Source: Myxococcota bacterium (lineage in GTDB: Bacteria; Myxococcota_A; UBA796; CAJQPC01). From it: a DNA stretch of 64,000 nt. This document shows positions 5,005-41,831 of this stretch, one piece after another. How positions within the stretch are numbered: the stretch's first letter is position 1; the number at the start of each line of letters is the position of its first letter. The notes beneath the pieces are model-generated. The model worked only from the letters and a program-made list of their open reading frames with translations, was not told the origin of the DNA and searched no databases. The position numbers were made by a program, and so were the translations under genes. The stretch is taken from contig DASCPX010000179.1 in assembly GCA_036012755.1 (NCBI GenBank), positions 78,566 through 142,565 of the forward strand. The letters run 5' to 3'.

Positions 5005-6204
5005 GTGTCGATGCCCCTCGCCCTGGCCTGCACGGACCCCGCATCGCAGGGACCCGACCGTCCGCGACGGGATCCGGGGGAGGACACCCACTCGCAGCCG
5101 GACTCGCAAGAAGACACGGGCGAGGAGCAGATCCAGCCCCCAGAGACCAGCTGCACCGCCGCCGACGCGAGCATGTCGATCGCGCCCGACTACCCGGAGA
5201 CCGGCCAGCGCGTGGACGTCTCCGTCACCGCGAACACGGGCTACGTCTACATCCACATGGCGGTGGCGGGTGGGGACTCGGAGCAGCTCAGCGCCGACAT
5301 CAGCGGCGACGGGCCCTAGACCTGGAGCTACGCCTTCACCCTGAGCGAGCCGGCCCGCTACACCTTCACCTTCACGGCGGACGACGGCTCCACGCCGATC
5401 TGCACGGGCAGCGTCACGGCGACCGGCGAGCCTGTCGAGGACACCGGAGACACCGGCAGTTCGGGGGAGCCACCGGACAACCCCATCGGCATCGGGCTGG
5501 TGAGCGAGGGCAGCACCGACCAGTGGGACCTCGCCCAGGATCTGGCTGGCAGAGGTGGGCACGTGAAGCTCATCTTCGTCGGCGTCGTGCCCGGCATGAG
5601 CGGCCCCGAGACGGCGTGGTCCAACGCCGTGGCCGGGGTCTATGCCCGCGACCTGGTGCCGGTCATCCGCATGAACCCGCACTGGGGCCAGACGGAGGTC
5701 CGCGAGTGGAGCGACGACTCCAGTCACCTCTCCTACACTGGCTACGCCCAATCCTTCGCGGCGGTGGTCTCGGGCTTGCCCCTGCGCGAGGACTGGCCGA
5801 TCTGGATCGAGCTCCTGAACGAGCCCAACCTCTGCTACGAGTGGACCTGCGACTCCGACGCCGGGACCTGGATGGGCTACGAGACGACCGCCGCGGAGTA
5901 CGCCGCGCTCCTTCGCGACGTCACCGCGGCGCTCCATGCCCTCGGGGATCCGCGCATCAAGGTGATCAACGCGGGCCTCGCCCCCGGCGGCGCCGTCGAC
6001 TGCGAGTGCGGCGGCAGCGGCTTCAACGCGGGCATCACGAGCCTCGAGTTCATCACCGCCATGGACTCGGCCGTGCCAGGGGTCTTCGACGACCTCGACG
6101 GCTTCGCCAGCCACGCCTATCCCTCCTCTGGCGAGGGCTGGGGCTTCTTCGAGGCCTACGACGACTGCGCTCCGGGCTTGAACTACTGGAAGCGCGAGCT
6201 GGAC
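5005..6204 (+). pseudogene. Lipoprotein-type clan GH-A (GH5-like) glycoside hydrolase, interrupted by an in-frame TAG and apparently 3'-truncated
   Basis: ORFs 5005..5319 and 5500..6468 share one frame, and the only stop between them is TAG 5317..5319. N-terminus is MSMPLALAC. IELLNEPN motif present. Translation becomes low-complexity after about 6204. Confidence 0.55.
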
Positions 6205-6275
6205 ACCACCAGCAACAACACCAGCAGCGAGAGCGCGATGTTCTGTCTCATGCCTTGTTCTACGCGGCAGGCAGC

Positions 6276-6506
6276 TCAGCTATTGAGCGCGCGTCTCACG
6301 GCGACGACGACGTCGTCCTCTGCAGGGAAGCCGCTGTTGTCCTTTTCGGCGACCTTCTGGCCGTCGACCCAGATGGTGAGCTCGCCCCGGTTGCCCGGGG
6401 TGACGTCCGAGCTCTCACCCGTGTCCTTCTCGATGAGGTCCGCCAACCTGGCGGCGCGTGGCTTGTAGTTTCAAGGCACGCAGTAGCGAATCACGATGCG
6501 AGACAT
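6276..6506 (-). CDS. SelW/SelT/SelH (Rdx) family selenoprotein; in-frame UGA (6473..6471) read as Sec in a CVPU redox motif
   Basis: ATG at 6506, TGA at 6276, 76 codons: MSRIVIRYCVP-U-NYKPRAARLADLIEK...GELTIWVDGQKVAEKDNSGFPAEDDVVVAVRRALNS. The ORF track stops at the internal TGA. Confidence 0.75.
6440..6454 (-). promoter_or_regulatory. Candidate bacterial SECIS hairpin (CCGCC-AGGUU-GGCGG)
   Basis: 5-bp G/C stem with a 5-nt loop containing GGU. It starts 16 nt 3' of the in-frame UGA. Confidence 0.45.
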
Positions 6507-6553
6507 CCGGACCTCCTGCAGTGGCAGTACCACTGTCGATGGGATGCGGCGAC

Positions 6554-7138
6554 TCAGTCGTTGCGGGCGAGGTCCATCTGCAAGGTGAGCTCGCAGGCGC
6601 TGCCGCCGATGATGGTCTCGACCACGCCGCAGTCCGCGCCCTCGCAGTTGAGCACGACATCGGCGCTCATGGTCATGGTCGCCTCGTCCACGAACTCGCC
6701 GTAGACCAGCGCATCGAAGACGATGACGGCGGCCAGGCCGTAGTCCTGTGGCGTGTAGTCCTCGTCGCTGCGGCTGTCGCAGTCGTAGGCCCAGCCATCG
6801 AGATCGCACTGGTCGTCCGGGGGCTCGTCACCGGCCATGGTGAACTTGCCTCCGCCGTCGTCGTGCAGCGTGACCTCGTTGCCGACCTCGCCGTGGCTGA
6901 CCCAGTCCGCTGCAGCGCAGGGGTCGTGGGTGAAGGTCCGCGCGGTGACCGTCCAGGTCTCGCCGTCGGTCAAGGGGTAGTCATCCCCACCGTCGTCATC
7001 GTCGTTGCCGTCGTCATCGTCGTTGCCGTCGTCGTCGTCGTTGCCATCGTCCTCGTCGAGGGGGTCGGCGGTCGGGCGGTCTTCGTCGTCTGGAGCCAGG
7101 GTCTCTGTGGAACAGGCCAGGAATGCAAACAGGATCAT
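6554..7138 (-). CDS. Acidic-repeat lipoprotein, unknown function
   Basis: ATG at 7138 gives MILFAFLACSTE. Contains (GNDDDD)x3. The C-terminal domain has 6 Cys. Confidence 0.6.
   Translation of the reverse strand: MILFAFLACSTETLAPDDEDRPTADPLDEDDGNDDDDGNDDDDGNDDDDGGDDYPLTDGETWTVTARTFTHDPCAAADWVSHGEVGNEVTLHDDGGGKFTMAGDEPPDDQCDLDGWAYDCDSRSDEDYTPQDYGLAAVIVFDALVYGEFVDEATMTMSADVVLNCEGADCGVVETIIGGSACELTLQMDLARND
6989..7042 (-). repeat. 3 x 18-bp in-frame tandem repeat encoding GNDDDD
   Basis: Plus-strand copies at 6989-7006, 7007-7024 and 7025-7042 (gccgtcgtcatcgtcgtt-like). Confidence 0.9.
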
Positions 7139-7155
7139 GCCTCTCCGGACGGTGC

Positions 7156-7193
7156 GTATACGCGCTGTATACCTAAGTAGACAGTGTGTATAC
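7156..7193. promoter_or_regulatory. Three GTATAC palindromes in an AT-rich divergent intergenic region (candidate operator/promoter)
   Basis: GTATAC at 7156-7161, 7167-7172 and 7188-7193 (spacings 11 and 21 bp), between the divergent starts at 7138(-) and 7221(+). Confidence 0.4.
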
Positions 7194-7220
7194 GTCAAGA
7201 AGCTGTCGTAGCCTGGGATC

Positions 7221-7857
7221 ATGCTGCTGCTGCTTGCATGCAACGGTCGCCTCGACACGGGCGCGTGCGAGGCGAGCTTCTCCTCTGGGGGGGGCATTCA
7301 CCTGCCCGATGGAGGGCTGGGGCGACCGGGACTACTACATCGTGCTGCCCGACGGCTACGCGGGCGGCGACGCGATCCCGCTGTTGGTCGACTTCCACGG
7401 GGGCGGCGGCAGCAAGATCTCCGAGGCCGCCTCGAGCTGTCCCGAGGGCGACCTGGACGACCCGAAGTGCCTGCATGCCTTCGCCAGGGAGAAGGGCTTC
7501 GCGCTGGTCTACCCAAACGGCACCGGCGCGAGCGGCTGGAAGCAGAACCTGCGGAGCTGGAACGCCGGAGGGGGGAACCCGGACGACGAGTTCCGCTGTG
7601 TCTCGACCCCGGCGGGCGAGGACGGCGTCGACGACGAGCGCTACCTCCGAGAGCTGCTCGACGACGTCGACGACGACGGCACGACCACGACCCGCCTGAG
7701 CTACCCGGACTGTCCCCTCGAACACCTCCGGGTGGACGGGGGCGGCCACGTCTGGCCCCAGGGCCACCAGTACCTGAGCGCAAAACGGGTAGGGCCTGCC
7801 TGGCAGGACTGGGGCAACGAAGTCATCTGGGACTTCCTCTCCAGCCACAGCCGTTAG
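7221..7857 (+). pseudogene. Lipoprotein esterase of the LpqC/PHB-depolymerase-like family, frameshifted at a G8 tract; nucleophile region appears to be missing
   Basis: MLLLLACNGRLDTGACEASFSSGG (frame 3) continues as AFTCPMEGWGDRDYYIVLPDGY...PLLVDFHGGGGS...GGGHVWPQG (frame 1). Removing one G from G8 (7287-7294) fuses the two frames. Confidence 0.6.
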
Positions 7858-8216: not shown

Positions 8217-8273
8217 CTTGACCGGACGACGACCGCGGGCAGAGTGGGTTGCACACTGCAACCTGGGGTCGAG

Positions 8274-8567
8274 ATGTCGAGCGCCGTGAAGCTCTCCACC
8301 GACCTCGTCGAAGCCGCGCGTCACGAGAGCCGGGTGTCTTCACGGTCGATGACCCAGCAGATCGAGTACTGGGCCCGGATCGGCCGGGCGATCGAGCGCA
8401 CCGGGGCCATCGAGCACGATCGCGTGTGCGCGGCTCTTCGAGCGGAGCTCGCCTTCGACGAGCTGAACACCGAGGAGCGCATGGCCGTGCTCGGCCAGCT
8501 CGAGCGGGAGGTGTTCCAGCCCCGGGGTGACCGGGCGCTGGCCAAGCGGCTGGCCCGGGAGGAGTGA
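8274..8567 (+). CDS. ParD-like type II antitoxin
   Basis: MSSAVKLSTDLVEAARHESRVSSRSMTQQIEYWARIGRAIE resembles the ParD-like antitoxin family. Its stop overlaps the toxin start (GTGA). Confidence 0.6.
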   Translation: MSSAVKLSTDLVEAARHESRVSSRSMTQQIEYWARIGRAIERTGAIEHDRVCAALRAELAFDELNTEERMAVLGQLEREVFQPRGDRALAKRLAREE

Positions 8568-17605: not shown

Positions 17606-18772
17606 TCAGACGGCGTCGAAGCCAGCCGCGGCGATGGCGGCCCGGACGACGGACTCGTCGACCTCGCCCTCGACATGGGCCGTGTTCGTCTCGATGCTGA
17701 CGGTGGCGCCGTCGACGCCGTCCGTGTTGTTCAGCACGCGCTCGAGGCGACGGGCGCAGCCCCCACAGGTCATGCCCTCGACGCCGATCTCCAGGGCCTT
17801 CGCGCCTGGTGAGGTGAGCTTTCTCCGGAGGTCGCCCACGGCGAACCAACATAGCATCGCGGTCAGCGCGACAGCGCTGGCGGTCGCCCACCAGGCCGCC
17901 CCGTGCTCGTGCGCTGGGGCGGTGGTGGCCTCGATGAGGAAACCAAAGGCCCAGCCAAGGCCAATGCTGCCGACGAGGATGGTGACCAGGTAGATGGCAG
18001 TGGTGCGAAGGCCGAAGGTCTTCTTGATGGCGCCGAGAGTCGCGATGTTCGTCGCCGGTCCAGCCATGAGGAAGACCAGGGCGGCGCCCGCGGGCATGCC
18101 CCCAGCCACGAGTGAGGCCGCGATCGGCACGCTCGCGGTGGCACAGACGTAGAGCGGTACGGCGATGAGCAGGACCACGAACATCGCGGGCAGGCCGCCG
18201 TAGTCACCCAGCGCCGCGAGCCACTCGTTGGGGACGAGCACGGTGATGGCCGCGCTGGCGACCACGCCGAAGGCCAACCAGCCCCAGATGCCCCGGATGA
18301 TCTGGAGGCCGTGGTCGAAGGCCCCCCGCCAGGTCCGATCGCCGCTGTCGTGGGTGGGGGGCGCCTCGTCGGTGCCGGTGGACCCGAAGCGGTCCGTGAG
18401 CCAGCCCCCGACGAGCCCGGTGGCGGCGGCGGCGGCGACCTTGAAGAGCGCGAAGGGCCACCCGAGGAAGCTCCCGGCGACGAAGATCGAGTCCACGCCG
18501 GTCTGGGGGGTGGCGATCAAGAAGCCGATGGAGGCCCCGTCGCTGGCGCCGTCCTTCTTGAGCCCGATGCCCGCAGGGATGACTCCGCAGGAACACAGGG
18601 GCAGGGGCACGCCGAAGAGCACTGCCTTGGCGACCGCGCCACGCCCGCGGAGGTTGCGCTGCATGAAGTCGGGTGGCAGCCACTTGTGGAGCAGGGCGGA
18701 CACGAGCGCTCCGAGCAGCAGCCACGGCGCCAGCTCGAGCAGGACGTCCCAGATCGCCTCGATGAAGCTCAT
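17606..18772 (-). CDS. Permease fused to a C-terminal heavy-metal-associated domain (SO_0444-type Cu/Zn efflux transporter)
   Basis: GVPLPLCSCGVIP permease motif. C-terminal HMA domain with GMTCGGCARRLE. The start overlaps the csoR stop (ATGA). Confidence 0.8.
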   Translation of the reverse strand: MSFIEAIWDVLLELAPWLLLGALVSALLHKWLPPDFMQRNLRGRGAVAKAVLFGVPLPLCSCGVIPAGIGLKKDGASDGASIGFLIATPQTGVDSIFVAGSFLGWPFALFKVAAAAATGLVGGWLTDRFGSTGTDEAPPTHDSGDRTWRGAFDHGLQIIRGIWGWLAFGVVASAAITVLVPNEWLAALGDYGGLPAMFVVLLIAVPLYVCATASVPIAASLVAGGMPAGAALVFLMAGPATNIATLGAIKKTFGLRTTAIYLVTILVGSIGLGWAFGFLIEATTAPAHEHGAAWWATASAVALTAMLCWFAVGDLRRKLTSPGAKALEIGVEGMTCGGCARRLERVLNNTDGVDGATVSIETNTAHVEGEVDESVVRAAIAAAGFDAV

Positions 18773-19053
18773 GCCCTGCCTCCGTAGCGTGCGAAGACGT
18801 CCATGAGCTCCTCGATGGCGTCCTGGCTCTGGGTCGGGTCGCCAGAGGCGAAGGCCTCGGCCACGCAGCTCTCGATGTGGGAGCGCAGGAGGATCTCACC
18901 GGCCTTGCCGAGAGCGCCGCGGGCGGCGGAGATCTGGGTGAGCACGTCGACGCAGTAGGCGTCGCCCTCGACCATGCGGCGCACCGCGGAGATCTGGCCC
19001 TCGGCCCGCTTCAGGCGGGTCAACAACCGCTTCTTGGAGGCTTCGTCTCTCAT
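18769..19053 (-). CDS. csoR: CsoR-family Cu(I)-sensing transcriptional repressor
   Basis: 94 aa: MRDEASKKRLLTRLKRAEGQISAVRRMVE... with the C34/H59/C63 ligand set. Hidden at the 3' end of the 940-aa shadow ORF. Confidence 0.85.
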   Translation of the reverse strand: MRDEASKKRLLTRLKRAEGQISAVRRMVEGDAYCVDVLTQISAARGALGKAGEILLRSHIESCVAEAFASGDPTQSQDAIEELMDVFARYGGRA

Positions 19054-23784: not shown

Positions 23785-25366
23785 CCTCGGCGTCACTCGG
23801 CAGCGCGAAGAGGCTCATGCCGCGGTCGGTCCACAGGGGCTCGCCCAGGTGCTGGCGGAGCCCTGGCCTCGTCGCGAGGACGTAGCGGAAGCCGGCCGTT
23901 TCGCTCCAGTCGCCCGTGATGGGTCGGTTTCGCCTCGCCTCTTCCAGGGCCACGAAGACGCCGAGCTCGACGAGTCGCCGCTCCCACTCTGCGCCGCGCA
24001 TCGCGGGGCTCATGTCCCAGGCGATGCCGCCGCCCTGGGGCTGGCCGTGGATGACCTGGTAGCCGATGAGGTCATTGGGGACGCGCGCCAGGGGCCAGAC
24101 GAGGATCGGACCGTGGAGCTCGGGCATCTCCGGGATGTTGGACTCGATCCACACGTGCTCGACCGGCCTGTCGTTTCGCAGCCCGACCCGGGCGTCGGCC
24201 ACGCAGACGATCGCGAGCGCAGCCACCGCCACGGGCCTGAAGCGCCTCGCCCGCGCGACGAGTCCGGCGACGCAGATGGCGAAGGCTGGCAAGCCGAGCC
24301 CCAGCCACCGATAGGGCCACCAGAAGCGCTCATGACCGGGCAGCCAGTCCATCAGCGCAGCCGGGAGCGCGAAGCTCAGATCGCCCCACATGAGCGGGAA
24401 GCCCCGCGAGCCGACGAGGACCGGCCCCAGCGCGAAGATGACGGCGCTGGCCGCGATGGCCGCGGGGATCCGGAGAGGCCGGAAGACCATGGCGCCGAGC
24501 ACCGCGGGGACCAGGAGGATGGGCACCTTGCGCGCAGGCTCGGTGGTGAGCTGGAGCAGGAAAGCGCCCGGGACCTCCAGCGCGCCCGCGTTCTTCTGGG
24601 CCAGGGGCTCCAGGCGGTTCATCAACAGCGCGTAGTGGTTGCCCTCCTCGAAGAAGGCAGGCGCGATCAGGGCGAGTGACGGCAGCACGACGACCAGGGA
24701 GACACCGAGCACCCCGAGCGCCGAGGGCTTGCGCCACCAGGCCGCCAGCAGGAGCGTGAACAGCACGCCGAACCAGGCGTAGAACCAGTAGCAGGACCCG
24801 GTGACGCCCAGGCCGATCCCCGCCACGAGCACGGCCTTTTTTCCCCCTCCGTCACGCAGCCACAGCATGCCGCCGAGCCAGACCGCCAGGGGTGCCCAGA
24901 GACCCTGCTCGGTGCGACCGACACCCGACTCCCAGATCGCATAAGCCGAGGCGGTGCCCACGACGACGGCGGCTGCCGCGCCCCAAGGATCCCGCGTCAG
25001 CCTCCACCCGGCCCAACCGCAAGCGACCCCGTTGGCCACCCCCACCACGAGCACCGCCGCGTTGAGCGCCGGCACGGGATCGAGCAGAGCGTGGACCGGA
25101 AAGAGCAGGACCTGGGCGCCGACATTCCACAGCAAGAGCCGCACGTCCTGCCCCTCCGGCCAGGCCAGCTCCGGCCTGAAGAAGGGATTGCGCAGCTCCA
25201 GGACACAGTCCACGAAGGAGTGCGACCACCAGATGCCCGCGCCGAGGTCCGGGTCGCCCAGCCGACCGAGGAGGTGGGTGTCCATCACCTGCACCAGCGG
25301 CCAGGACGCCGCGACGACCAGTACGATGGCCAGCGCGACGAGCGCGCCCCAGAGTCTCACCGCCAC
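23774..25366 (-). CDS. Polytopic membrane protein (same architectural class as 12272..13972 and 57442..59127)
   Basis: 530 aa with more than 10 TM helices. The N-terminal loop is LGRLGDPDLGAGIWWSHSF. Confidence 0.6.
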   Translation of the reverse strand: MAVRLWGALVALAIVLVVAASWPLVQVMDTHLLGRLGDPDLGAGIWWSHSFVDCVLELRNPFFRPELAWPEGQDVRLLLWNVGAQVLLFPVHALLDPVPALNAAVLVVGVANGVACGWAGWRLTRDPWGAAAAVVVGTASAYAIWESGVGRTEQGLWAPLAVWLGGMLWLRDGGGKKAVLVAGIGLGVTGSCYWFYAWFGVLFTLLLAAWWRKPSALGVLGVSLVVVLPSLALIAPAFFEEGNHYALLMNRLEPLAQKNAGALEVPGAFLLQLTTEPARKVPILLVPAVLGAMVFRPLRIPAAIAASAVIFALGPVLVGSRGFPLMWGDLSFALPAALMDWLPGHERFWWPYRWLGLGLPAFAICVAGLVARARRFRPVAVAALAIVCVADARVGLRNDRPVEHVWIESNIPEMPELHGPILVWPLARVPNDLIGYQVIHGQPQGGGIAWDMSPAMRGAEWERRLVELGVFVALEEARRNRPITGDWSETAGFRYVLATRPGLRQHLGEPLWTDRGMSLFALPSDAEASP

Positions 25367-25404
25367 ACCATGACCTCAGCCTAGCCCAGATAGAGTCGCA
25401 CCAG

Positions 25405-26931
25405 ATGGCCTCGCCCCTCGACAGACCTCCGCAGGGGCAGACCCTGGCGCTCGTGTCCCTCTACGACATCGAGAACAACGCCGTGCGTCAGCTCGCCGCC
25501 GCGGTGCGCGAGCAGGGTCGACGGGTCGTGGAGGTCTACTTCAAGGACTGGAAGAACAACCACCTCGAGGAGCCGACCGAGTACGAGCTCCAACAGCTCG
25601 CCGAGCTCCTCGAGCGCGAGGGTGTCGGTCTCATCGGCATCTCCCTGCGCGCCAGCGCTTATGAGCGCATCGCCGGCATGGTCACCACCCGCCTGCGCCG
25701 ACTCGGGCGCCCGATCGTCCTCGGCGGCTGGCACGTCACGGTGCGGCCCGAGCGCTGCGACGGCATGGCCGCGGCGCTCTGCCTCGGCGAGGCGGACGTG
25801 GCCTTTCCCCGCTTCGTCGAGGCGTGGTTCACGGGAGGGGACTGGCGCGGCTGCCCCAGCATGCGCTTCGGAGGCACGCAGAACCCGCTGGAGCCCCTGG
25901 TCGAGGACCTCGACTCCCTGCCCTGGCGGGACTACGCGAGCGAGGACAAGTGGGTGCTGTCGAGGGGCTCCGTCGCCCGCGGAGACCCGATGGCCGCCGA
26001 CCCGCTCTACCAGGTGATGTGCAGCCACGGCTGCATCCAGAAGTGCTCCTTCTGCCACAACTCCTTCGACACCGGAGCCGAGGGGCCGCGGCTGCGCTTC
26101 CGCAGCGTCGACAGCGTCCTGGCCGAGCTCGCCGAGCGTCGGCGCCTCAACCCGAGCATCCGCCGCGTGCGCTTCGACGACGAGGTCTTTGGCCTGTCCA
26201 GGAGCTGGCTGCGCGAGTTCGCCGAGCGCTATCCGGAGGAGGTCGGACTGCCCTTCGACATCCTCACCGAGCCCACGGTGGTCAACGAGGAGTACGTGGA
26301 GCTCATCACGGCCGCCGGCGCCCGGGTGGTCCACATGGGCATCCAGTCCAACGAGCCCGTCAACCGGGAGCGGCTCGGACGCCGCGCCGACCGGGAGACG
26401 ACGATGCGAGCGGTGCAGCTGCTCACCGCGGCGGGCCTCTACATCCGCTACCTCTGCATGGTGGACGTGCCGGGCACCACGTCCGACGACCAACGGAGCC
26501 TCTTCCGCTTCCTGCAAGAGGTGCCCAAGCCCTACGACCTCTACCTCTTCAGCCTCACCTGGTTCCCCGGGAGCAAGATGGTCGAGGACATGCTGGAGCG
26601 CGGCGAGCTCGACCCGAGCCAGGTCGAGGGCACGGCGACCAAGACCTTCTCCCAGTACCGCGTGGACCTTGGCTGGCCTCGCTCTCCAGAGGACACCTGG
26701 TGGCTCGCCCTGATGGTCCTCCAGGCCAGCCAGACCATGCCGAACGGCGTGCTGCGACGGATCATGGAGAGCGACTTCAGCAAGGAGTCCCCTCGCCACC
26801 TGGTGCTGGCTGCCCACGCGGCGACCCTGGTGAAGACGGCCCGCATCGCCAACCGCATGAGGCGCGACGGGGAGCTCACCGCGACCCTGGTGAGACGGTG
26901 GTGGAACCCCCAGCAGATGATCACGATGTAG
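25405..26931 (+). CDS. B12-binding-domain radical SAM enzyme (paralog A)
   Basis: The N-terminal domain is Rossmann-like and resembles a cobalamin-binding domain. CIQKCSFC is a CX3CX2C motif. Alignable over its full length with 40302..41831. Confidence 0.8.
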   Translation: MASPLDRPPQGQTLALVSLYDIENNAVRQLAAAVREQGRRVVEVYFKDWKNNHLEEPTEYELQQLAELLEREGVGLIGISLRASAYERIAGMVTTRLRRLGRPIVLGGWHVTVRPERCDGMAAALCLGEADVAFPRFVEAWFTGGDWRGCPSMRFGGTQNPLEPLVEDLDSLPWRDYASEDKWVLSRGSVARGDPMAADPLYQVMCSHGCIQKCSFCHNSFDTGAEGPRLRFRSVDSVLAELAERRRLNPSIRRVRFDDEVFGLSRSWLREFAERYPEEVGLPFDILTEPTVVNEEYVELITAAGARVVHMGIQSNEPVNRERLGRRADRETTMRAVQLLTAAGLYIRYLCMVDVPGTTSDDQRSLFRFLQEVPKPYDLYLFSLTWFPGSKMVEDMLERGELDPSQVEGTATKTFSQYRVDLGWPRSPEDTWWLALMVLQASQTMPNGVLRRIMESDFSKESPRHLVLAAHAATLVKTARIANRMRRDGELTATLVRRWWNPQQMITM

Positions 26932-30151: not shown

Positions 30152-31260
30152 GGGTCGCGCTCAGCGGCTGGGGCTCCATCTCGGCCCTTGGCTGCTCCAA
30201 CGACGAGGGGGTGGCCGGACTCCGCGCAGGCCACCGGGGGCTCGGCTTCGCCCAGCGCTCACCGCACCTCCTCCGGGCCGAGGAGATCCTCGTAGCAGAG
30301 GCCCCCTTCGACGTCCCCATCGAGCGACGCGCTCGGGAGATGGTCGCCGTCGCGGTCGACGAAGCCCTGGCGATGGCCCCGAAGTCCCCAGGGATCGTAG
30401 GGGTCTTCGCCGGCACGACCGGGGGTTTCTTCGTGGACGCGGAGGTGGATCTCCTGTTCGCCCGAGTGGAGGATCCGGAGGCCATCCCCGACTTCGGTCA
30501 GCGCGGCCAGGGCGAGCTGGCCACGGTCGTGGCCAGACAGGCAGGCGCCCTCGGCCCGGTCCTCACCTTCTGCACCGCCTGCACCTCCAGCGCCGCCGCC
30601 ATGGCCAGCGCTGCTGCCCACCTGCGCGCGGGGACCTGCAGCCGAGCGGTGGTGGTCGGCTTCGACCTGCTGTCCAGCCTGACGGTCCAGGGCTTCAAGA
30701 GCCTGATGCTCTGCGATCCCGAGCCCTGCCGCCCCTTCGACACCACCCGGGCCGGGCTGCAGGTCGGCGAAGGCTGCGGGGTCGTGATCCTCGACGCCGA
30801 GGGTGAGGGGCCGTTCGTAGTCCGGGGCTCCTCCAATCGCATCGACCCCTCCCACCTGACCGCCAGCGCCACGGACGGCTCGACGGTCGAGCGGGTCATC
30901 CGAGAGGCCGTGGGCGACGACGAGATCGTCACCATCAAGGCCCACGGCACCGGCACGAGGGACAACGATCTCGCAGAGGGCCGGGGGGTCGCGAGGGCCT
31001 TCGGCGACCCGCCGCCCTTCGCCTCCTTGAAGGGCAGCCTCGGCCACACCCTCGGCGCCGCCGGAGCCCTGGAGACGGCGCTCTGGCTGGGCTGCCTGCG
31101 AGCGGGCTTCTGCCCGCCTTCCCGGGGGTTTTGCGAGCTCGACCCGGACATCGGCGTCTCTCCGATCACACAGCAGATCCCTGCCCTATCGGGGGCTCAC
31201 CTCTTCAACGCCTTCGGCTTCGGCGGCTCCTGCGTCGCGATGGTGATCGCCGATGCCTAG
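30145..31260 (+). CDS. Beta-ketoacyl-ACP synthase (KS, FabF/FabB-like, short form)
   Basis: TACTSSAAAMA carries the active Cys. KAHGTGT and GSLGHTLGAAG carry the His residues. Confidence 0.85.
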   Translation: MVRVALSGWGSISALGCSNDEGVAGLRAGHRGLGFAQRSPHLLRAEEILVAEAPFDVPIERRAREMVAVAVDEALAMAPKSPGIVGVFAGTTGGFFVDAEVDLLFARVEDPEAIPDFGQRGQGELATVVARQAGALGPVLTFCTACTSSAAAMASAAAHLRAGTCSRAVVVGFDLLSSLTVQGFKSLMLCDPEPCRPFDTTRAGLQVGEGCGVVILDAEGEGPFVVRGSSNRIDPSHLTASATDGSTVERVIREAVGDDEIVTIKAHGTGTRDNDLAEGRGVARAFGDPPPFASLKGSLGHTLGAAGALETALWLGCLRAGFCPPSRGFCELDPDIGVSPITQQIPALSGAHLFNAFGFGGSCVAMVIADA

Positions 31261-32008
31261 CGTCGGCATCCACGGGTGGGCCTCGGTCACCACTGCCAAG
31301 GGACACAAGGAGCGCTTCGGTCACACCTTCAGGCGCATCGGCCCCTTCGTGAAGATCGCCCAGCTCGGCGCCACCGACGCGGTCGAGTCGACCCCAGAGG
31401 GCCTCGGCGTCTTCCTCGGGACAGGGCTCGGAAACACAGCCGACATCGTGCCCCTGATGACGAGCGTGCTCGATCCGCACCGGCCGCGCTGCTCGCCCAT
31501 GGCCTTCGCTGGCTGCGTGGGCAACTCGGCGGCCTTCTTCGTGGCGGCGGTCCTGGGCAGTACCGGACCCAGCGTGACCGTCTCCCAAGAGGAGCTGTCC
31601 TTCGAGGCGGCGCTGCTGGAGGCCGTGATCGCGATGGACGAGGGGCTGCAATGGGCGCTCGTCGGGGGTGTCGACGTGATGAGCGGCAGCCCGGTAGACC
31701 AGCGTCACCGCGTGAACGCAGTCGGGGTCGAGGGAGAGCTCGGCGAGGGCGCCGCCTTCATCCTGCTCGGACCGCGCGAGGGCGCCACCGCCACAGTCGA
31801 CCGGGTCGAGCTCGGCACCTTCCCCCTGGACCCGGCGGACCGGACGCCGCTGTACGGCTGGCGCATGGACCATCCACAGCGCGAGCGCCGCCTGGTCCCC
31901 GTCGCGGCGGGACTGCGCATCGTCGAGGCCCTGGACCACCCGGGAAGGTACGTGCACCTCAACCGCTCCGCCGGGGGCCTCTCCGCGCGGGTGTGCTTCA
32001 CGCGATGA
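31253..32008 (+). CDS. KS-like partner lacking the active-site Cys (chain-length-factor-like)
   Basis: KS N-terminal-like fold signatures (FLGTGLGN, VGGVDVMS). No C-H-H triad. 8-nt overlap with the KS gene. Confidence 0.65.
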   Translation: MPSVGIHGWASVTTAKGHKERFGHTFRRIGPFVKIAQLGATDAVESTPEGLGVFLGTGLGNTADIVPLMTSVLDPHRPRCSPMAFAGCVGNSAAFFVAAVLGSTGPSVTVSQEELSFEAALLEAVIAMDEGLQWALVGGVDVMSGSPVDQRHRVNAVGVEGELGEGAAFILLGPREGATATVDRVELGTFPLDPADRTPLYGWRMDHPQRERRLVPVAAGLRIVEALDHPGRYVHLNRSAGGLSARVCFTR

Positions 32009-32847
32009 AGCGCGTCCTGGTCCTGTGGTGGTCTCAGAGCGGACAGCTCGAGGGCTGCATGCGGGCCTTCTGCGAGCCCCTCGAAGCCAGCGGCGTCGAG
32101 CTGGTCTACCGCCGAGTCGAGCCAGCCGTCGCCTACCCCTTTCCATGGAGCGTGAGCGCCTTCTTCGGCCAGTTCCCCGAGACCTTCCTCGAAGAGGGCG
32201 TCGACATCGACTTCGAGCCCCCGGAGGGCGACTTCGACCTCGTGATCGTGGCCTCGCAGGTGTGGTTCCTCAAGCCCTCTCCGCCCTTCTGTCGCCTGTT
32301 GTCCCGACACCCGGCGCTCTTCGCGGGCCGCCGGGTCCTGACCCTGGTCGCCTGTCGCAACATGTGGATTCGCGGCTGGGGCCGCCTCGCGGAGCGCATC
32401 CGTGAAGCCGGCGGCGACATCACCGACCGGGTCGTCGCGGTGCACTCGGGCTCTGTTCTGGCCAGCTACTTCACGACCCTGGCCTGGATGCTGACGGGCA
32501 AGCGTGACGCCCTGAAGCCGCTCGGAAAGGCCGAGATCGCAGCGCAGACGGTCGAGAGGGTCAGGGGCCTGGGCGAGCGCTTCGCCAGCGGCGAGCACGT
32601 CGACGAGGCGCCCATCTCGCTCACCCACGCCCTCGGCGAGCAGCTCGTCGGACGCACGTTCTTCCCTCTTCTGGCGGCCATCGGTCATCTCACGCCGCGA
32701 CAGGGCATCCTCCGAACACTGTTCGCGTGGTTCCAGATGAGCTTCACGATCTCGGCGGTCCTGACCCTGCTGGGGCCCTGCATGCTGGTCCGCTTGCTGT
32801 TCGGGCGGTGGGTCGACCCGTGGCTCCGGGAGCAGGCACGGTTATGA
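32005..32847 (+). CDS. DarA-like protein (dialkylresorcinol pathway partner of DarB); flavodoxin-like N-terminus and hydrophobic C-terminus
   Basis: Starts MKRVLVLWWSQSGQL. It sits immediately upstream of the FabH-like condensing enzyme, as in darAB loci. ATGA overlap with the upstream gene. Confidence 0.5.
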   Translation: MKRVLVLWWSQSGQLEGCMRAFCEPLEASGVELVYRRVEPAVAYPFPWSVSAFFGQFPETFLEEGVDIDFEPPEGDFDLVIVASQVWFLKPSPPFCRLLSRHPALFAGRRVLTLVACRNMWIRGWGRLAERIREAGGDITDRVVAVHSGSVLASYFTTLAWMLTGKRDALKPLGKAEIAAQTVERVRGLGERFASGEHVDEAPISLTHALGEQLVGRTFFPLLAAIGHLTPRQGILRTLFAWFQMSFTISAVLTLLGPCMLVRLLFGRWVDPWLREQARL

Positions 32848-32850
32848 GCG

Positions 32851-33987
32851 GTGGTGCCCGCGTTCATCACGCAGACCGGAAGCTACCTGCCCGGACCGCC
32901 CCTCGACAATGACGCCATGGAAGCGCGTCTGGGCTTCCTGGATGATCGCTCCCCGCGGATCAAGCGTCGGATCCTCAGGAACAACGGCATCCAGACCCGC
33001 CACTACGCTCTCGATGAAGAGGGCAGGCCAACGGAGAGCAGCGCGAGCATGGCCGCCAAGGCCATCCGCGAGGCCACCCGCGACATCGATCTGACCACGA
33101 TCGACCTGCTCGCCTGCGGCACGAGCATCGTCGAGCACATCGTGCCCGGCCATGCCTCCAGCGTGCACGGAGAGCTTGGGTCCCATCCCTGCGAGATCGT
33201 CACCACTGGCGGTGTCTGCTGCGCGGGAATGACCGCCCTGAAGTACGCGACGATGGCGGTCGGTGGCGGACACGCCAGGCGAGCCGTCGCCAGCGGCAGC
33301 GAACGCACCAGCGCCTTCCTGCGCCAGGCGCACTTCCAGGCGGAGCTTGCAGCGCGCGGCGTCGACGAGGACGAGCCCTATGTCGGCTTCGACCAGTCCT
33401 TCTTGCGCTGGATGCTCTCCGACGGCGCCGGGGCCATGCTCGTCGAGAACGAGCCCCGTCCCAACGGGCTCTCTCTGCGCGTCGAGTGGATCGAGCTCAC
33501 GAGCTACGCCAACGAGCTCCCCACCTGCATGTACATGGGCGCGGAGCGCACACCATCCGGTGGCCTCACGAGCATGTGGGACCTCGACTCGATGTCCTCG
33601 ACGCTGACGAAGGGGCTGTTGAACCTCCACCAGGACGTGAAGCTGCTCGGCCAGCACGTGGTGGTCGCCGGCGCCAACGCGCTGTTGCGGGCAGCGGAGA
33701 AACACGGCCTCGCCCCCTCCGATGTCGACTACCTGCTGCCTCACTACAGCTCCGAGTTCTTCCGCGACAAGACCCACGCGCAGCTCGACAGCGTCGGCTT
33801 CCCGATCCCCACCTCGAAGTGGCGGAGCAACCTGGTAGAGCGCGGAAACACAGGCTGCGCGAGCATCTTCGTGATGCTCGACGACTTCCTCCGATCAGGC
33901 GAGCTCCAGCCGGGCCAGACCGTGTTGTTGCTGGTGCCGGAGAGCGGGCGCTTCTCCGCTGCCTGGGCGCTGCTCAGGGCCCAATGA
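32851..33987 (+). CDS. KAS III (FabH)-like condensing enzyme, DarB-like
   Basis: GGVCCAGMTAL (Cys), LLPHYSS (His) and RGNTGCASIF (Asn) make up a FabH-type triad. Confidence 0.75.
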   Translation: MVPAFITQTGSYLPGPPLDNDAMEARLGFLDDRSPRIKRRILRNNGIQTRHYALDEEGRPTESSASMAAKAIREATRDIDLTTIDLLACGTSIVEHIVPGHASSVHGELGSHPCEIVTTGGVCCAGMTALKYATMAVGGGHARRAVASGSERTSAFLRQAHFQAELAARGVDEDEPYVGFDQSFLRWMLSDGAGAMLVENEPRPNGLSLRVEWIELTSYANELPTCMYMGAERTPSGGLTSMWDLDSMSSTLTKGLLNLHQDVKLLGQHVVVAGANALLRAAEKHGLAPSDVDYLLPHYSSEFFRDKTHAQLDSVGFPIPTSKWRSNLVERGNTGCASIFVMLDDFLRSGELQPGQTVLLLVPESGRFSAAWALLRAQ

Positions 33988-38986: not shown

Positions 38987-40243
38987 TCAGGCGTTCTGGG
39001 CCAGGAACTCCACGACCAGCGGGTCCCCCTCGAAGTGGCGGTCCTCTGAGAGCCGCCGTCGGACTCCCATGTCGAGCTGTCGCCAGACGGTCTCGGGTAT
39101 GCCCGAGCCCTTCCACCAGCAGCGGAACTCGTCGGCGAGGCTGTCGCGCAACAGATCGACGTCGCCCCTGTGGAGCAGCTGGTCGTCGGGGCCGAGGGCG
39201 CGCACGCCCCGGAGCTCGCCGACCTCGCCGTCGTGGGCCTTGACCCAGCGCTTTCCGGCGCGAGCGCTGCGGAAGTCGAGGCTCTCGACCCCCGAGATCC
39301 CAATGCGTTCGAGGTCCCCCGCGAGCTGCGCGTGCATCACCCGCCGCAGGTCGGGACCTGCCTTCGCCAGTCCGCCACCACGATCCGTCGAGTGCGGCGG
39401 CGGGTCACCGCGGGGGTAGACCCCTGGCCTGTCGGTGGGCTCTACATCCGGCTCCACGCCGTCGAGGGCGTCCTCGAAGGTGGCTCCGGGGACGAAACCC
39501 ACTGAGCTCCGCGTCGTCTCGGGCGCAACCGACACGTCACCCGGAGGCAGCGCCGCGAAGCGCGTCTTCCTCCAGCCCGAGCCCTGGCGCCGCGAAGCCA
39601 CGAGGCGCTCCATCTCCTCGCCCGTGTAGACCCTCGGACCGCCCACCGCGCAGGACCGGCCGACCTCGAAGCGGTCGAGGTAGGCCAGAGCCACCTTCGC
39701 GACGTCGGCCCGGTGCATCGGCGAGTAGCGACTGGCCACATCGAAGCCATGCGGACGGGCCCCATCCGGAGGGACGACGTGGCCCTCGATGACCTCGTCG
39801 TGGGTGCAGCTGACCCGTACGATGGCCCAGGGGGCCGCGCAGTTGCGCACTCCGCCCTCGACGTAGAAGGCCCGCCGGTTGAGCCGCGCGTAGGACCACC
39901 GATAGGCCCCCATGACGCTGAGGTGCAGGATTCGCTCGGCCCCAGCTTCGTGAGCAGCCCGGACGATGTTCTCTGCGGCGATGCCAGCGTAGATGACCGA
40001 GCCCGGGCCGCTGGTCCGCGCGTCGATGCAGCTGATGACCTCTGATGCCCCGTCCATGACAGCGCGAAGGGCGTCGATGTGTCGAGGATCGGCGTAGGCG
40101 ACATCCTGGACATCCGCGAAGCCATGGAGATTGTCGAGGTCGCGGTCGTCGCGTACGACGGGGCGGACGGGGCGTCCGCGGGCCATCGCAAGGCGGAGGA
40201 TCTCGCTCCCTGTGCGCCCGTTGGCGCCGACGACTACGAGCAT
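38987..40243 (-). CDS. NAD(P)-binding (NmrA/SDR-like) protein with an extra C-terminal domain
   Basis: MLVVVGANGRTGSEILR is a GxxGxxG Rossmann start. 418 aa. Confidence 0.65.
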   Translation of the reverse strand: MLVVVGANGRTGSEILRLAMARGRPVRPVVRDDRDLDNLHGFADVQDVAYADPRHIDALRAVMDGASEVISCIDARTSGPGSVIYAGIAAENIVRAAHEAGAERILHLSVMGAYRWSYARLNRRAFYVEGGVRNCAAPWAIVRVSCTHDEVIEGHVVPPDGARPHGFDVASRYSPMHRADVAKVALAYLDRFEVGRSCAVGGPRVYTGEEMERLVASRRQGSGWRKTRFAALPPGDVSVAPETTRSSVGFVPGATFEDALDGVEPDVEPTDRPGVYPRGDPPPHSTDRGGGLAKAGPDLRRVMHAQLAGDLERIGISGVESLDFRSARAGKRWVKAHDGEVGELRGVRALGPDDQLLHRGDVDLLRDSLADEFRCWWKGSGIPETVWRQLDMGVRRRLSEDRHFEGDPLVVEFLAQNA

Positions 40244-40301
40244 GCCGGCATCCTACAGCCCGCAACGAAAACTGCTTGCGCCCACTATGCTCAGGGAGCC
40301 A

Positions 40302-41831
40302 ATGCGTCGCCTGAAGGTCGCCATCATCAGCCTCTACGCCCTGGAGAACAACGGGGTGCGACACGTCGCCTCGTCGCTCAGAGAGGCGGGCTTCCAGGTG
40401 ACCGAGATCTACTTCAAGGACTGGGTCAACAACCGCTTCCCATGGCCGGCCGAGGTCGAGGTCCAGAACCTCCTGTCGCTGCTGCGAGACCGAGGGATCG
40501 ACGTGGCCGGGATCTCGGTGCGCGCCAGCGCTTTCCACCGGATGGCGAAGTACCTCACCGAGCGGGTGCGCAGTGCCCTCGGGCTCCCGGTCCTGTGGGG
40601 CGGCATGCACCCGACCTTCCTGCCCGAGATGTGCATCGAGATCGCCGACTACATCTCGATCGGGGAGACCGACCAGATCGTGAAGGAGTTCTTCACCCGA
40701 CTCGATGAAGGCGTCTCCGTCCACGACTGCCCGAGCTTCTGGGTTCGCGAGGGCGACACCGTCTACCGCAACGACGTCGCCCCCCTCGTCGAGCTCGACG
40801 ACGTGCCCTTCCGGGACTTCCACACCCGGGACGACAAGTTCCACATCGCGGGCGACAAGGTCTCCGTCGGCGACCCCTTCATCGACAACCCCGAGTACAC
40901 GCTCCTGGCATCACGTGGCTGCCCCTACTGGACCTGCACCTTCTGCAGCAACACGCTCACCAAGCCGCTCTACGAGGGCAAGGGGAAGGGCTACCGCGTC
41001 CGCTCGGTAGAGCACATCATCCAGGAGATGGAGTACGCGACGAAGATCTGCAAGGACATCAAGGTCGTCCGCTTCGACGACGAGGTCTTCCCGATCCGTG
41101 CGGAATGGATCGAGGAGTTCGCCCAGAAGTGGCCTGCCCGCGTGGGCATCCCCTTCGAGGTCCTGGTCGACCCGCGCATGGTCCGCCTCGAGCCGCTGCG
41201 CCTGTTGAAGACCGCCGGGCTGCGGGCTCTCTGCATGGGCATCCAGGCGACCGAGCGGGTGAACCAGGAGTTCTACAACCGCAACACGACGAACCAGCAG
41301 ATCCTGGACGCGCAGGAGGTCTTCCGGTCCGTCGGCGTCACCAGCAACCTGCAGATCATCTGGGACGACCCCTACTCGACCCAGCAGGACAAGGACGACC
41401 TCTTCCATCTGGTCATGGAGCTCCAGCGCCCCTTCGAGCTCTTCCTCTTCGGCCTGACGATCTACCCCAACACCCACATGGCTCGACGCCTGCTGCGCGA
41501 GGGGCGCATCACAGAGGGACACATCGAGGGGGTGAACACCCACGCCTTCGAGCAGTTCCGCGTGGACCTCGACTACCCGCGACCGAAGGAGGACACCCGC
41601 TGGCTGGCGCTCTTCGTCCTCTGCAACAAGAGCTTCCTGCCAAAGGACCTCATCTGGAAGCTCTACACCTCGGAGCGCTTCAAGGCCAACCCCGCGCCGC
41701 TGGTCCAGCTGGCCCAGGCGGTGAACCTCGTCAAGATGGCGGGTGTGGCTGGCGAGATGACGCTGCGAGGCGAGATGACGCCGCTGTTGATCAAGCGCTG
41801 GGTGAACCCCGACTCCCTGGTGACGATGTGA
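40302..41831 (+). CDS. B12-binding-domain radical SAM enzyme (paralog B)
   Basis: GGGAG lies 6 nt before the ATG at 40302. The cluster motif CPYWTCTFC has CX4CX2C spacing. Shares SLY..ENN.VR, YFKDW.NN, VRFDDEVF and RW.NP....TM with paralog A. Confidence 0.8.
   Translation: MRRLKVAIISLYALENNGVRHVASSLREAGFQVTEIYFKDWVNNRFPWPAEVEVQNLLSLLRDRGIDVAGISVRASAFHRMAKYLTERVRSALGLPVLWGGMHPTFLPEMCIEIADYISIGETDQIVKEFFTRLDEGVSVHDCPSFWVREGDTVYRNDVAPLVELDDVPFRDFHTRDDKFHIAGDKVSVGDPFIDNPEYTLLASRGCPYWTCTFCSNTLTKPLYEGKGKGYRVRSVEHIIQEMEYATKICKDIKVVRFDDEVFPIRAEWIEEFAQKWPARVGIPFEVLVDPRMVRLEPLRLLKTAGLRALCMGIQATERVNQEFYNRNTTNQQILDAQEVFRSVGVTSNLQIIWDDPYSTQQDKDDLFHLVMELQRPFELFLFGLTIYPNTHMARRLLREGRITEGHIEGVNTHAFEQFRVDLDYPRPKEDTRWLALFVLCNKSFLPKDLIWKLYTSERFKANPAPLVQLAQAVNLVKMAGVAGEMTLRGEMTPLLIKRWVNPDSLVTM

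What the first reader, a model, noticed from the sequence alone, without database searches (positions are those of the whole stretch)
6276..6506. Unannotated SelW/Rdx-family selenoprotein gene with in-frame UGA and a SECIS-like hairpin
The ORF track ends a minus-strand ORF at TGA 6473..6471, after ...MSRIVIRYCVP. Reading through that TGA gives an uninterrupted 76-codon frame from ATG 6506 to TGA 6276: MSRIVIRYCVP-U-NYKPRAARLADLIEKDTGESSDVTPGNRGELTIWVDGQKVAEKDNSGFPAEDDVVVAVRRALNS.

The TGA sits exactly at the second redox position of the CxxC/CxxU motif of the Rdx (SelW/SelT/SelH) thioredoxin-fold family. The rest follows the family pattern: a beta1 strand ending in YC, then RA..LA..L, then G-x-L-x-I-x-VDG, then GxFP.

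Sixteen nt after the UGA the mRNA can form CCGCC-AGGUU-GGCGG. This is a G/C stem whose loop contains GGU, as expected for bacterial SECIS elements. No other feature explains the 6210..6553 gap.
Basis: partly seen in the sequence, partly recalled or inferred. Interest (0 to 1): 0.72.

Follow-up and report, generated by a model that had tools for sequence, protein, structure and literature searches.

The report
Missed SelW-like selenoprotein gene
This is a real but ordinary small redox-protein gene whose in-frame TGA almost certainly encodes selenocysteine; it belongs to the SelW-like family, already known as the commonest bacterial selenoprotein family in marine metagenomes and routinely truncated by gene callers.

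Summary
On the minus strand, ATG 6506 to TGA 6276 is a 76-codon frame broken only by TGA 6473..6471. With Cys in place of U, the product passes the curated cut-offs of Pfam Rdx (PF10262) and NCBIfam TIGR02174 (CXXU_selWTH). Its C9-x-x-U12 aligns onto the CxxC of solved Rdx structures.

The comparative evidence decides it. In 144 homologous loci the Sec column is TGA 142 times, TAA twice and Cys never, and the peptide upstream of the TGA is conserved. A hairpin 16 nt after the UGA (6454..6440) meets the published bacterial SECIS constraints. Across about 130 homologues its closing base pair lies on two synonymous sites that never vary, while other fourfold sites vary freely. A second pair of synonymous sites covaries.

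The window's hairpin alone is not significant: 12.5% of TGAs in this 69% GC window pass a simplified version of the test. Sec-insertion genes could not be checked. No tRNA gene was found in the window, and none of the about 40 ORFs scanned is SelA, SelB or SelD.

Verdict: reader supported; a new member of a well-known family; low interest except as an annotation fix.

The parts
6276..6506 (-). Full SelW-like (Rdx family) selenoprotein coding sequence: 76 codons plus the stop, read through the UGA at codon 12
   Evidence: sequence and translation. Pfam Rdx 45 bits against a cut-off of 22.6. TIGR02174 CXXU_selWTH 39.4 bits against 34.2. PDB Rdx-fold relatives 2LJK, 2FA8 and 3DEX.
6512..6517 (-). 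Shine-Dalgarno-like AGGAGG, 5 nt upstream of ATG 6506
   Evidence: Read directly from the sequence. The alternative TTG start at 6446 has no such motif and lies inside the hairpin.
6471..6482 (-). Redox motif Cys9-Val-Pro-Sec12 (UGC GUG CCU UGA)
   Evidence: Aligns to the CxxC of 2LJK (CEPC), 2FA8 (CTQC) and 3DEX (CTQC). The Cys codon three codons upstream of the stop was present in all 144 loci counted.
6471..6473 (-). In-frame UGA, read as selenocysteine (inferred)
   Evidence: The same column is TGA in 142 of 144 homologous loci, TAA in 2 and a Cys codon in none. TGA is otherwise the normal stop in this window, ending 21 of 30 confident genes and this gene itself.
6440..6454 (-). bSECIS-type hairpin: 5' arm 6454-6449 (CCGCCA), loop 6448-6446 (GGU), 3' arm 6445-6440 (UGGCGG)
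   Evidence: -8.6 kcal/mol, 22 nt from the UGA to the loop, and G in the first loop position; it meets the constraints in PMC13188914 Fig. 2A. Across 126 homologues the helix is 85% paired, against 32-67% for the slid controls. The pair C6450-G6444 is invariant at synonymous sites. The pair C6453-G6441 covaries: CG 78, UA 14, UG 13, GC 8, GU 4.
6276..6446 (-). Truncated 56-aa ORF (TTG start) that gene callers report in place of the full gene
   Evidence: All four word-index database hits are 56-61 aa fragments that start after the UGA, as are most hits of the exhaustive search.
6276..6278 (-). Real stop codon (TGA) of the gene
   Evidence: The homologues end at the same place or within a few codons of it.

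Best explanation
This is a real gene for a 76-residue SelW-like (Rdx-family) selenoprotein. Translation starts at ATG 6506, behind an AGGAGG ribosome-binding site. At codon 12 the ribosome meets UGA 6473..6471. The hairpin 16 nt downstream (6454..6440, GGU loop) is inferred to act as a bacterial SECIS element: it would recruit SelB-GTP-Sec-tRNA(Sec), so that selenocysteine is inserted instead of termination. The product would be a minimal thioredoxin-fold protein with a Cys9-x-x-Sec12 redox centre that cycles between a selenylsulfide and a thiol/selenol. It most likely works as a thiol-disulfide oxidoreductase; its substrate is unknown, as it is for the whole bacterial family. Shown here: the frame, family membership, conservation of the UGA, the Cys/Sec correspondence, and RNA-level selection on the hairpin. 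Inferred: actual Sec insertion, SelB binding, the fold and the redox chemistry.
For: The product passes the curated cut-offs of Pfam Rdx and TIGR02174 CXXU_selWTH. The CxxC of the solved Rdx structures 2LJK, 2FA8 and 3DEX aligns on C9..U12. All six close loci (79-98% and 52% identical) keep the in-frame TGA and the upstream peptide xRIxIRYCxx, with synonymous and conservative changes upstream of the TGA. Of 144 loci from genomes and metagenomes, 142 have TGA, 2 have TAA and none has Cys. The database's 'CxxW' proteins are TGA in the one checked at the DNA level (L150). The hairpin meets the published bSECIS constraints (PMC13188914). The helix is 85.1% paired across 126 sequences, with 0 of 500 shuffles reaching the observed pairing or covariation score and slid controls at 32-67%. 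Third positions of fourfold codons have 1.1-1.95 bits of entropy along the gene but 0 bits at codon 19 (C in 130/130) and codon 21 (G in 118/118), which form the closing pair of the hairpin. The one true Cys form (L148) lacks this sequence and folds worse than its shuffles. TGA is the ordinary stop of 21 of 30 window genes and of this gene itself, so a local signal is needed to tell the two UGAs apart. A strong SD precedes ATG 6506. In the literature, SelW-like CxxU is the most abundant prokaryotic selenoprotein family in the Sargasso Sea and GOS data, with 427 Sec and 56 Cys forms (PMC2398784 Table 2; PMC1088965), and it has few or no Cys homologues in Sec-using organisms (PMC1794560).
Against: No Sec machinery was seen: ARAGORN found no tRNA gene in the window, and none of about 40 ORFs scanned against Pfam is SelA, SelB or SelD. 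A 64-kb window cannot settle this either way. The window's own hairpin is short (6 bp) and not significant alone: z = -1.0, and 7.6% of all TGAs in the window have a hairpin at least as stable under the same rules. RNAalifold run blind on the alignment predicted only a register-shifted 3-bp stem with no covariation, so the helix is one I named rather than one a tool found independently. Much of the arm complementarity follows automatically from the conserved Ala-Ala...Ala-Ala codons; only the third-position evidence is independent of the protein. The sequences in the covariation test are related, so the shuffle control overstates significance. Rfam has no match.
Confidence: 0.9

Rival explanations
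1. The gene is a relic. The TGA terminates translation in this host, for example because the lineage has lost the Sec machinery, so at most an 11-residue peptide or the 56-residue TTG-started fragment is made.
For: No Sec machinery was found in the window. Two homologous loci carry TAA at this column (L017, L056), so inactivated copies may exist. The literature describes repeated loss of SelW-like genes in sister lineages (PMC1794560, Table 4).
Against: The pre-UGA peptide, the SD, the UGA and the hairpin are all intact here and in the closest relatives at 79-98% identity. A relic would be expected to decay. The TTG start lies inside the hairpin and has no SD.
Confidence: 0.06
2. The UGA is decoded as a standard amino acid (Trp, Gly or Cys), either through an alternative genetic code or through SECIS-independent read-through.
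For: Some database entries show W at this column (P0006, P0020, P0055).
Against: In the one W form checked at the DNA level (P0006/L150) the codon is TGA, and the call does not translate to the query under table 11. That points to a gene-caller artefact. In this window TGA ends 21 of 30 confident genes and this gene itself. The conserved hairpin with frozen synonymous sites is not explained by plain read-through.
Confidence: 0.02
3. The TGA is a sequencing or assembly error of a Cys codon (TGC or TGT), so this is really a Cys-form Rdx gene.
For: A single-base change would suffice. One true Cys form exists (P0010/L148).
Against: The same TGA is present in independent assemblies of near-identical sequence (L005, L006) and in 142 of 144 loci from many projects.
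Confidence: 0.01
4. The region is simply the 3' end of the plus-strand ORF 5320/5500..6468, and the minus-strand frame is an accidental antisense ORF.
For: That ORF has no stop until 6468 and has high GC3.
Against: Its third codon positions coincide with those of the minus-strand gene, so the high GC3 is inherited from it. Its tail over this region is low-complexity S/T/A-rich sequence, and it has no Pfam hit. An open antisense frame over the selW homologue occurs in 96 of 142 loci, which is what GC-rich DNA gives by chance. The minus-strand gene is conserved in quite different gene neighbourhoods (L001/L002).
Confidence: 0.01

Closest known systems
Prokaryotic SelW-like selenoproteins (Zhang, Fomenko and Gladyshev 2005, Sargasso Sea, PMC1088965; Zhang and Gladyshev 2008, GOS, PMC2398784; NCBIfam TIGR02174 CXXU_selWTH; Pfam PF10262 Rdx)
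   Same: It is a small single-domain protein (76 aa here) with a CxxU motif directly after the first beta strand. A bacterial-type SECIS hairpin with G in a small apical loop sits just downstream of the UGA, inside the coding region. Sec forms greatly outnumber Cys forms. The family is abundant in marine and soil metagenomes, and gene callers routinely truncate it.
   Different: Nothing essential differs. This copy belongs to a clade with the motif C-[VI]-P-U-NYKPRAA and an AGGUU loop, where the wider family has CGUGU. Its best genome relatives are only 58-65% identical, so the host lineage is poorly sampled.
Eukaryotic selenoprotein W and the Rdx family (SelW, SelT, SelH, Rdx12/MIEN1; solved example 2LJK)
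   Same: Homologous domain and the same position of the CxxC/CxxU centre; the alignment to MIEN1 has E = 3.8e-9.
   Different: Eukaryotic genes use a 3'-UTR SECIS with a kink-turn, recognised by SBP2 and eEFSec. Here the signal is a coding-region hairpin of the bacterial SelB type.
Cys-form bacterial Rdx proteins with solved structures (Atu0228 2FA8, SAV_2001 3DEX, 2OKA, 2OBK, 2OJL, 2P0G)
   Same: The same domain, recognisable by sequence (E = 2.6e-5 to 0.08), with CxxC at the aligned position.
   Different: They carry Cys rather than Sec, are about 105 aa long with extensions, and have no SECIS requirement.
E. coli fdhF SECIS (the experimental paradigm for SelB-dependent recoding)
   Same: A hairpin directly downstream of the UGA, with G and U residues in a small apical loop at a fixed distance from the UGA. 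From my own knowledge, G23 and U24 of the fdhF loop contact SelB.
   Different: The stem here is shorter and has no evident bulged U. SelB binding is inferred, not tested.

Membership tests
Rdx / SelW-SelT-SelH family (Pfam PF10262; NCBIfam TIGR02174) | Whole-protein score above the curated family cut-off | tested here: met
   PF10262: 45 bits against 22.6, E = 1.3e-11, covering profile positions 1-73 of 74. TIGR02174: 39.4 bits against 34.2. U was replaced by C for scoring.
Rdx / SelW-SelT-SelH family (Pfam PF10262; NCBIfam TIGR02174) | CxxC/CxxU redox motif directly after the first beta strand, aligned with that of characterised members | tested here: met
   Query C9-V-P-U12 aligns to CEPC (2LJK), CTQC (2FA8) and CTQC (3DEX).
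Rdx / SelW-SelT-SelH family (Pfam PF10262; NCBIfam TIGR02174) | Thioredoxin-like beta-alpha-beta-beta-beta-alpha fold | not tested
The fold is inferred only from sequence homology to solved structures.
NCBIfam NF041051 SelTWH_Campy (equivalog) | Score above the equivalog cut-off of 88 bits | tested here: not met
   54.5 bits. This is a relative, not a member of that specific Campylobacter-type orthologue group.
Bacterial selenoprotein gene (SelB/SECIS-dependent UGA recoding) | In-frame UGA conserved among homologues, with conserved coding sequence on both sides | tested here: met
   142 of 144 loci have TGA. The upstream peptide xRIxIRYCxx is conserved with synonymous changes.
Bacterial selenoprotein gene (SelB/SECIS-dependent UGA recoding) | Homologues with Cys at the UGA column | tested here: met
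   P0010/L148 has CHRC encoded by TGC, and the solved Rdx structures have CxxC. Cys forms are rare in this subfamily, as published (PMC2398784; PMC1794560).
Bacterial selenoprotein gene (SelB/SECIS-dependent UGA recoding) | Downstream hairpin meeting the bSECIS consensus: loop 3-9 nt, stem 4-16 bp, G in the first two loop positions, 16-37 nt from the UGA, MFE at or below -7.5 kcal/mol (PMC13188914 Fig. 2A) | tested here: met
   6-bp stem, GGU loop (or AGGUU, matching N1-G-[G|U]-N-N2), spacing 21-22 nt, -8.6 kcal/mol. Caveat: 12.5% of all TGAs in this window pass my simplified version of the test. bSECISearch itself was not available.
Bacterial selenoprotein gene (SelB/SECIS-dependent UGA recoding) | Evolutionary evidence that the hairpin is under selection as RNA | tested here: met
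   The closing pair lies on synonymous sites and is invariant (C in 130/130, G in 118/118), while other fourfold sites have 1.1-1.95 bits of entropy. The pair at alignment columns 30-42 covaries. RNAalifold did not recover the helix unaided.
Bacterial selenoprotein gene (SelB/SECIS-dependent UGA recoding) | The host encodes selA, selB, selC (tRNA-Sec) and selD | not testable with these tools
   Only 64 kb of the host genome is available. ARAGORN found no tRNA gene, and none of about 40 ORFs scanned is SelA, SelB or SelD. Absence from the window says nothing about the rest of the genome.
Bacterial selenoprotein gene (SelB/SECIS-dependent UGA recoding) | Selenium actually incorporated at the UGA | not testable with these tools
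   This needs 75Se labelling or mass spectrometry.

The most novel reading that the evidence does not exclude
The subfamily this gene belongs to spans MAGs labelled Acidobacteriota, Myxococcota and Gemmatimonadota, plus soil and marine metagenomes. It may be essentially Sec-obligate: no Cys codon in 144 loci, and one Cys form among 64 cluster representatives. Its SECIS is written into the conserved helix-1 peptide A-A-R-V-A-A, so RNA and protein constraints are locked together. If so, Sec could be the ancestral and irreplaceable state, pointing to a chemistry that Cys cannot support and a still-unknown function specific to this clade.
Probability: 0.15. Interest if true: 0.4.

Novelty: new member of a known kind. 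Interest (0 to 1): 0.25.

Why it matters
The practical value is annotation. The gene would be missed or truncated to 56 residues, as all of its close relatives in the public protein collection searched here are, and some are mistranslated with Trp. Recognising it also marks the host as a probable selenocysteine user, which bears on its trace-element requirements. It adds nothing conceptually new: the family, its CxxU motif, its bacterial SECIS and its abundance in marine metagenomes were described in 2004-2008. The synonymous-site analysis is a clean illustration of a SECIS embedded in coding sequence, and it could serve as a positive control for selenoprotein-finding methods.

Tried and rejected
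- **Rfam:** nothing at gathering threshold over the whole window. A permissive scan of 6200..6600 gave only two chance-level hits (sobemovirus FSE, asX4). No Rfam family matched this element.
- **RNAalifold run blind on the 126-sequence alignment:** it returned a shifted 3-bp stem with no covariation. I therefore tested a named helix with the count of structure pairs instead, and I say so.
- **Single-sequence folding:** not significant (z = -0.17 for 67 nt, z = -1.0 for 29 nt), so the hairpin in this window alone proves nothing.
- **Exhaustive protein search with the U-to-C edited sequence:** I used the exact post-UGA 64 aa instead. Its long multi-stretch hits (P0005, P0028 and others) are unrelated repeat proteins.
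- **Two crude scans for other read-through TGA genes in the window:** these failed to recover the selW gene itself, and their only hits lie antisense to known genes. They are uninformative and are not evidence of absence.
- **Search for Sec machinery in the window by Pfam and ARAGORN:** nothing found. A window of this size cannot be conclusive.
- **Promoter and terminator scan of 5900..7500:** nothing found, so the transcription unit is undefined.
- **Host taxonomy:** not resolved. The gene content (MopE-type Cu-binding repeats, FG-GAP, CHAT, PilZ, 69% GC) and the labels of the nearest selW relatives suggest Myxococcota or another 'deltaproteobacterial' lineage. That is inference only.

Full report
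**The observation**

- ATG at 6506..6504
- ten sense codons (SRIVIRYCVP)
- TGA at 6473..6471
- 64 more sense codons
- a terminal TGA at 6278..6276

The mechanical ORF list shows the two halves separately. One ORF ends in ...MSRIVIRYCVP at 6471. A 56-aa ORF starts at TTG 6446. An AGGAGG lies 5 nt upstream of ATG 6506. The TTG has no such motif and sits inside the hairpin. The window is 69% G+C.

**Family membership**

With Cys substituted for U, the product scores 45 bits against Pfam Rdx PF10262 (cut-off 22.6), covering profile positions 1-73 of 74. It scores 39.4 bits against NCBIfam TIGR02174 'CXXU_selWTH' (cut-off 34.2). It does not reach the equivalog cut-off of NF041051 (54.5 against 88 bits), so it is not that particular orthologue.

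Against the PDB it finds human MIEN1/C17orf37 (2LJK, E = 3.8e-9) and the bacterial Rdx proteins 2FA8, 3DEX, 2OKA, 2OBK, 2OJL and 2P0G. In the printed alignments their CxxC lies exactly on C9..U12.

**Is the TGA read as a sense codon?**

The word-index protein search returned only four relatives, all 56-61 aa long. These are the post-UGA fragment, which suggested that gene callers hit the same stop elsewhere. Fetching their DNA showed that it is so. All six loci keep an in-frame TGA at the same column, preceded by a conserved peptide:
- MPRIVIRYCVP*NYKPRAARLADL
- MNRVKIRYCVV*NYLPRAARVAAL (52% identical)
- DRILIRYCIP*NYKPRAARLADL

The changes upstream of the TGA are synonymous or conservative. 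That is the signature of translated sequence, not of a 5' leader.

I then scanned the genome and metagenome collections with an alignment of the read-through products. One of the two search patterns required Cys at the Sec column, so Cys forms had every chance of being found. Of 144 loci where the column could be resolved, 142 carry TGA, 2 carry TAA and none carries a Cys codon. The genomes are MAGs, mostly labelled Acidobacteriota (Vicinamibacterales, Pyrinomonadaceae, Blastocatellia) and Myxococcota (Kofleriaceae, Myxococcales), with a few labelled Gemmatimonadota or other groups. The metagenomes are from soil and sea.

An exhaustive HMMER search with the exact post-UGA 64 aa gave 64 cluster representatives, most again 41-62 aa fragments. 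Among the full-length ones:
- P0010 is a real Cys form (RYC-HR-C-SYRP), encoded by TGC.
- P0006, P0020 and P0055 show W at the Sec column. For P0006 the DNA reads TGA, and the tool reports that the call does not translate under table 11. The W is therefore a gene-caller artefact.

A global reassignment of TGA in the host is excluded. TGA terminates 21 of 30 confident window genes and this gene itself.

**The hairpin**

The window sequence CCGCCA-GGU-UGGCGG (6454..6440) begins 16 nt after the UGA. The published consensus for bacterial SECIS elements (PMC13188914, Fig. 2A) requires:
- a 3-9 nt apical loop
- a 4-16 bp upper stem
- a G in the first two loop positions, usually as N1-G-[G|U]-N-N2
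- 16-37 nt between the UGA and the loop
- MFE at or below -7.5 kcal/mol

The window element has a 6-bp stem, a GGU loop (or AGGUU, which fits the N1...N2 pattern with an A-U pair), 21-22 nt of spacing and -8.6 kcal/mol, so it passes.

By itself this means little. In this GC-rich window 12.5% of all 1119 TGAs pass my simplified version of the test, and 7.6% have a hairpin at least as stable. The 29-nt fold has z = -1.0.

The comparative data are what count. I aligned 126 distinct sequences from UGA-6 to UGA+54. The helix at alignment columns 26-33 and 39-46 forms standard pairs in 85.1% of cells. Shuffled controls give 79.1%, with 0 of 500 shuffles reaching the observed pairing or covariation score, and controls with the 3' partner slid by 1-3 columns give 32-67%. 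The pair at columns 30-42, both third positions of Ala codons (window C6453-G6441), shows CG 78, UA 14, UG 13, GC 8, GU 4 and 9 unpaired. The second loop nucleotide is an invariant G.

A codon-level analysis is cleaner. Over 130 distinct homologues, third positions of fourfold-degenerate codons have 1.1-1.95 bits of entropy all along the gene. Three consecutive codons stand out:
- codon 19: C in 130/130
- codon 21: G in 118/118
- codon 20: 0.77 bits

Codons 19 and 21 supply the closing base pair of the hairpin (window C6450-G6444), and codon 20 lies in the loop. Protein-level selection cannot freeze synonymous sites, so this is selection on the RNA.

The one Cys-form gene has GAG and GCG at these codons, and its equivalent stretch folds worse than its shuffles (z = +1.24). 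This is a single case but points the expected way.

Caveats:
- RNAalifold run blind found only a shifted 3-bp stem.
- Much of the arm complementarity follows automatically from Ala-Ala...Ala-Ala codons.
- The sequences are related, so the shuffle statistics overstate significance.
- Rfam has no match.

**What could not be tested**

ARAGORN finds no tRNA gene in the window. None of about 40 ORFs scanned against Pfam is SelA, SelB or SelD. Two crude scans for further read-through genes were uninformative, because they did not even recover the selW gene. No promoter or terminator consensus was found nearby. Gene neighbourhoods differ between relatives, so context gives no functional hint.

**Mechanism**

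The best-supported reading is standard bacterial Sec recoding. The ribosome starts at ATG 6506. SelB with Sec-tRNA(Sec) binds the hairpin 6454..6440 as the UGA enters the A site. Sec is inserted at residue 12, and translation continues to TGA 6276. The product would be a minimal thioredoxin-fold protein with a Cys9-x-x-Sec12 centre, presumably a thiol-disulfide oxidoreductase. The frame, the family, the UGA conservation and the RNA constraint are shown here. Sec insertion, SelB binding, the fold and the chemistry are inferred from established knowledge of the Rdx family and of the fdhF paradigm.

**Comparison with what is known**

Prokaryotic SelW-like proteins with CxxU and a coding-region SECIS were described from the Sargasso Sea data (PMC1088965). 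[quoted passage not shown] They are noted for having few or no Cys homologues in Sec-using organisms (PMC1794560). NCBIfam even names the family for the CXXU motif. Systematic truncation of such genes in databases is a recognised problem (PMC13326102).

This locus is therefore a new member of a known kind. Its nearest relatives in species-representative genomes are only 58-65% identical, and near-identical copies occur only on short metagenome contigs (L005, L006). The host lineage is thus poorly sampled, but nothing about the gene is out of pattern.

**Verdict**

I put confidence at about 0.9 that this is a functional SelW-like selenoprotein gene. The main residual doubt is the untested presence of Sec machinery in the host. 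Interest is low (0.25): it is a correct and useful annotation fix, not a surprise.

Noticed in passing
window 5320..6468 (+), especially 6215..6468: A plus-strand ORF that contains an IELLNEPN motif. From my own recollection this resembles the catalytic-acid motif of clan GH-A glycoside hydrolases; Pfam gave no hit. The ORF has no stop codon until 6468, so it runs antisense through about 190 nt of the selW gene with a low-complexity S/T/A-rich tail. Its third codon positions coincide with those of selW. The long overlap could lead a gene caller to suppress the selW ORF. Its real C-terminus is unclear.
   Followed up: partly
L017:3034-3036 and L056 (stop codon of the CxxU column): Two homologues carry TAA instead of TGA at the Sec column, with an otherwise intact frame and hairpin. 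L017 is a second copy on the same Vicinamibacterales contig as L016, which has TGA. These could be a pseudogene, a recent G-to-A mutation or an assembly error. As far as I know tRNA-Sec reads only UGA, so TAA would not be decoded as Sec.
   Followed up: no
L150:480-707 (protein P0006); also P0020 and P0055: Full-length database proteins show Trp at the Sec column (CxxW). In L150 the codon is TGA, so a gene caller evidently applied a TGA=Trp code to a short metagenome contig. Such entries hide selenoproteins as apparently complete proteins.
   Followed up: partly
L033, L040, L041, L045, L047, L049, L056-L062, L066, L121, L123 (alignment A3 columns 12-14): A subgroup, mostly labelled Pyrinomonadaceae, Blastocatellia or Gemmatimonadota, has one extra codon right after the Sec (U-[A/G/S]-S-Y-R-P instead of U-N-Y-x-P). 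This moves the hairpin 3 nt further from the UGA while keeping the frame and the stem.
   Followed up: no
window 6554..7297 (-): The gene immediately upstream of selW on the same strand, 47 nt away (stop 6556..6554, selW ATG 6506), encodes a 247-aa protein with a DDDDGNDDDDGNDDDD acidic repeat and no Pfam hit. It is also adjacent in L005 and L006, but not in the more distant relatives L001 and L002, whose neighbours are an alpha/beta hydrolase and a DUF1648 protein.
   Followed up: no
window 25180..26928 (+) and 40098..41828 (+); 31247..33984 (+): Two paralogous B12-binding radical SAM genes, with ketoacyl-synthase-like genes (KAS N-terminal domain; KAS III) between them. This may be a lipid or natural-product modification cluster.
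   Followed up: no
window 52212..54242 (+) and 54203..55819 (+): Two adjacent large proteins packed with MopE-type putative Cu-binding motifs (PF11617; 7 and 5 matched repeats). A SCO1/SenC gene (48312..49484), a DJ-1/PfpI gene and an ArsP permease fused to an HMA domain (17609..18895) are also in the window, so it is rich in metal-handling genes.
   Followed up: no
window 8217..8564 (+): A ParD-like antitoxin (PF11903, 63.5 bits). No obvious partner toxin was examined.
   Followed up: no
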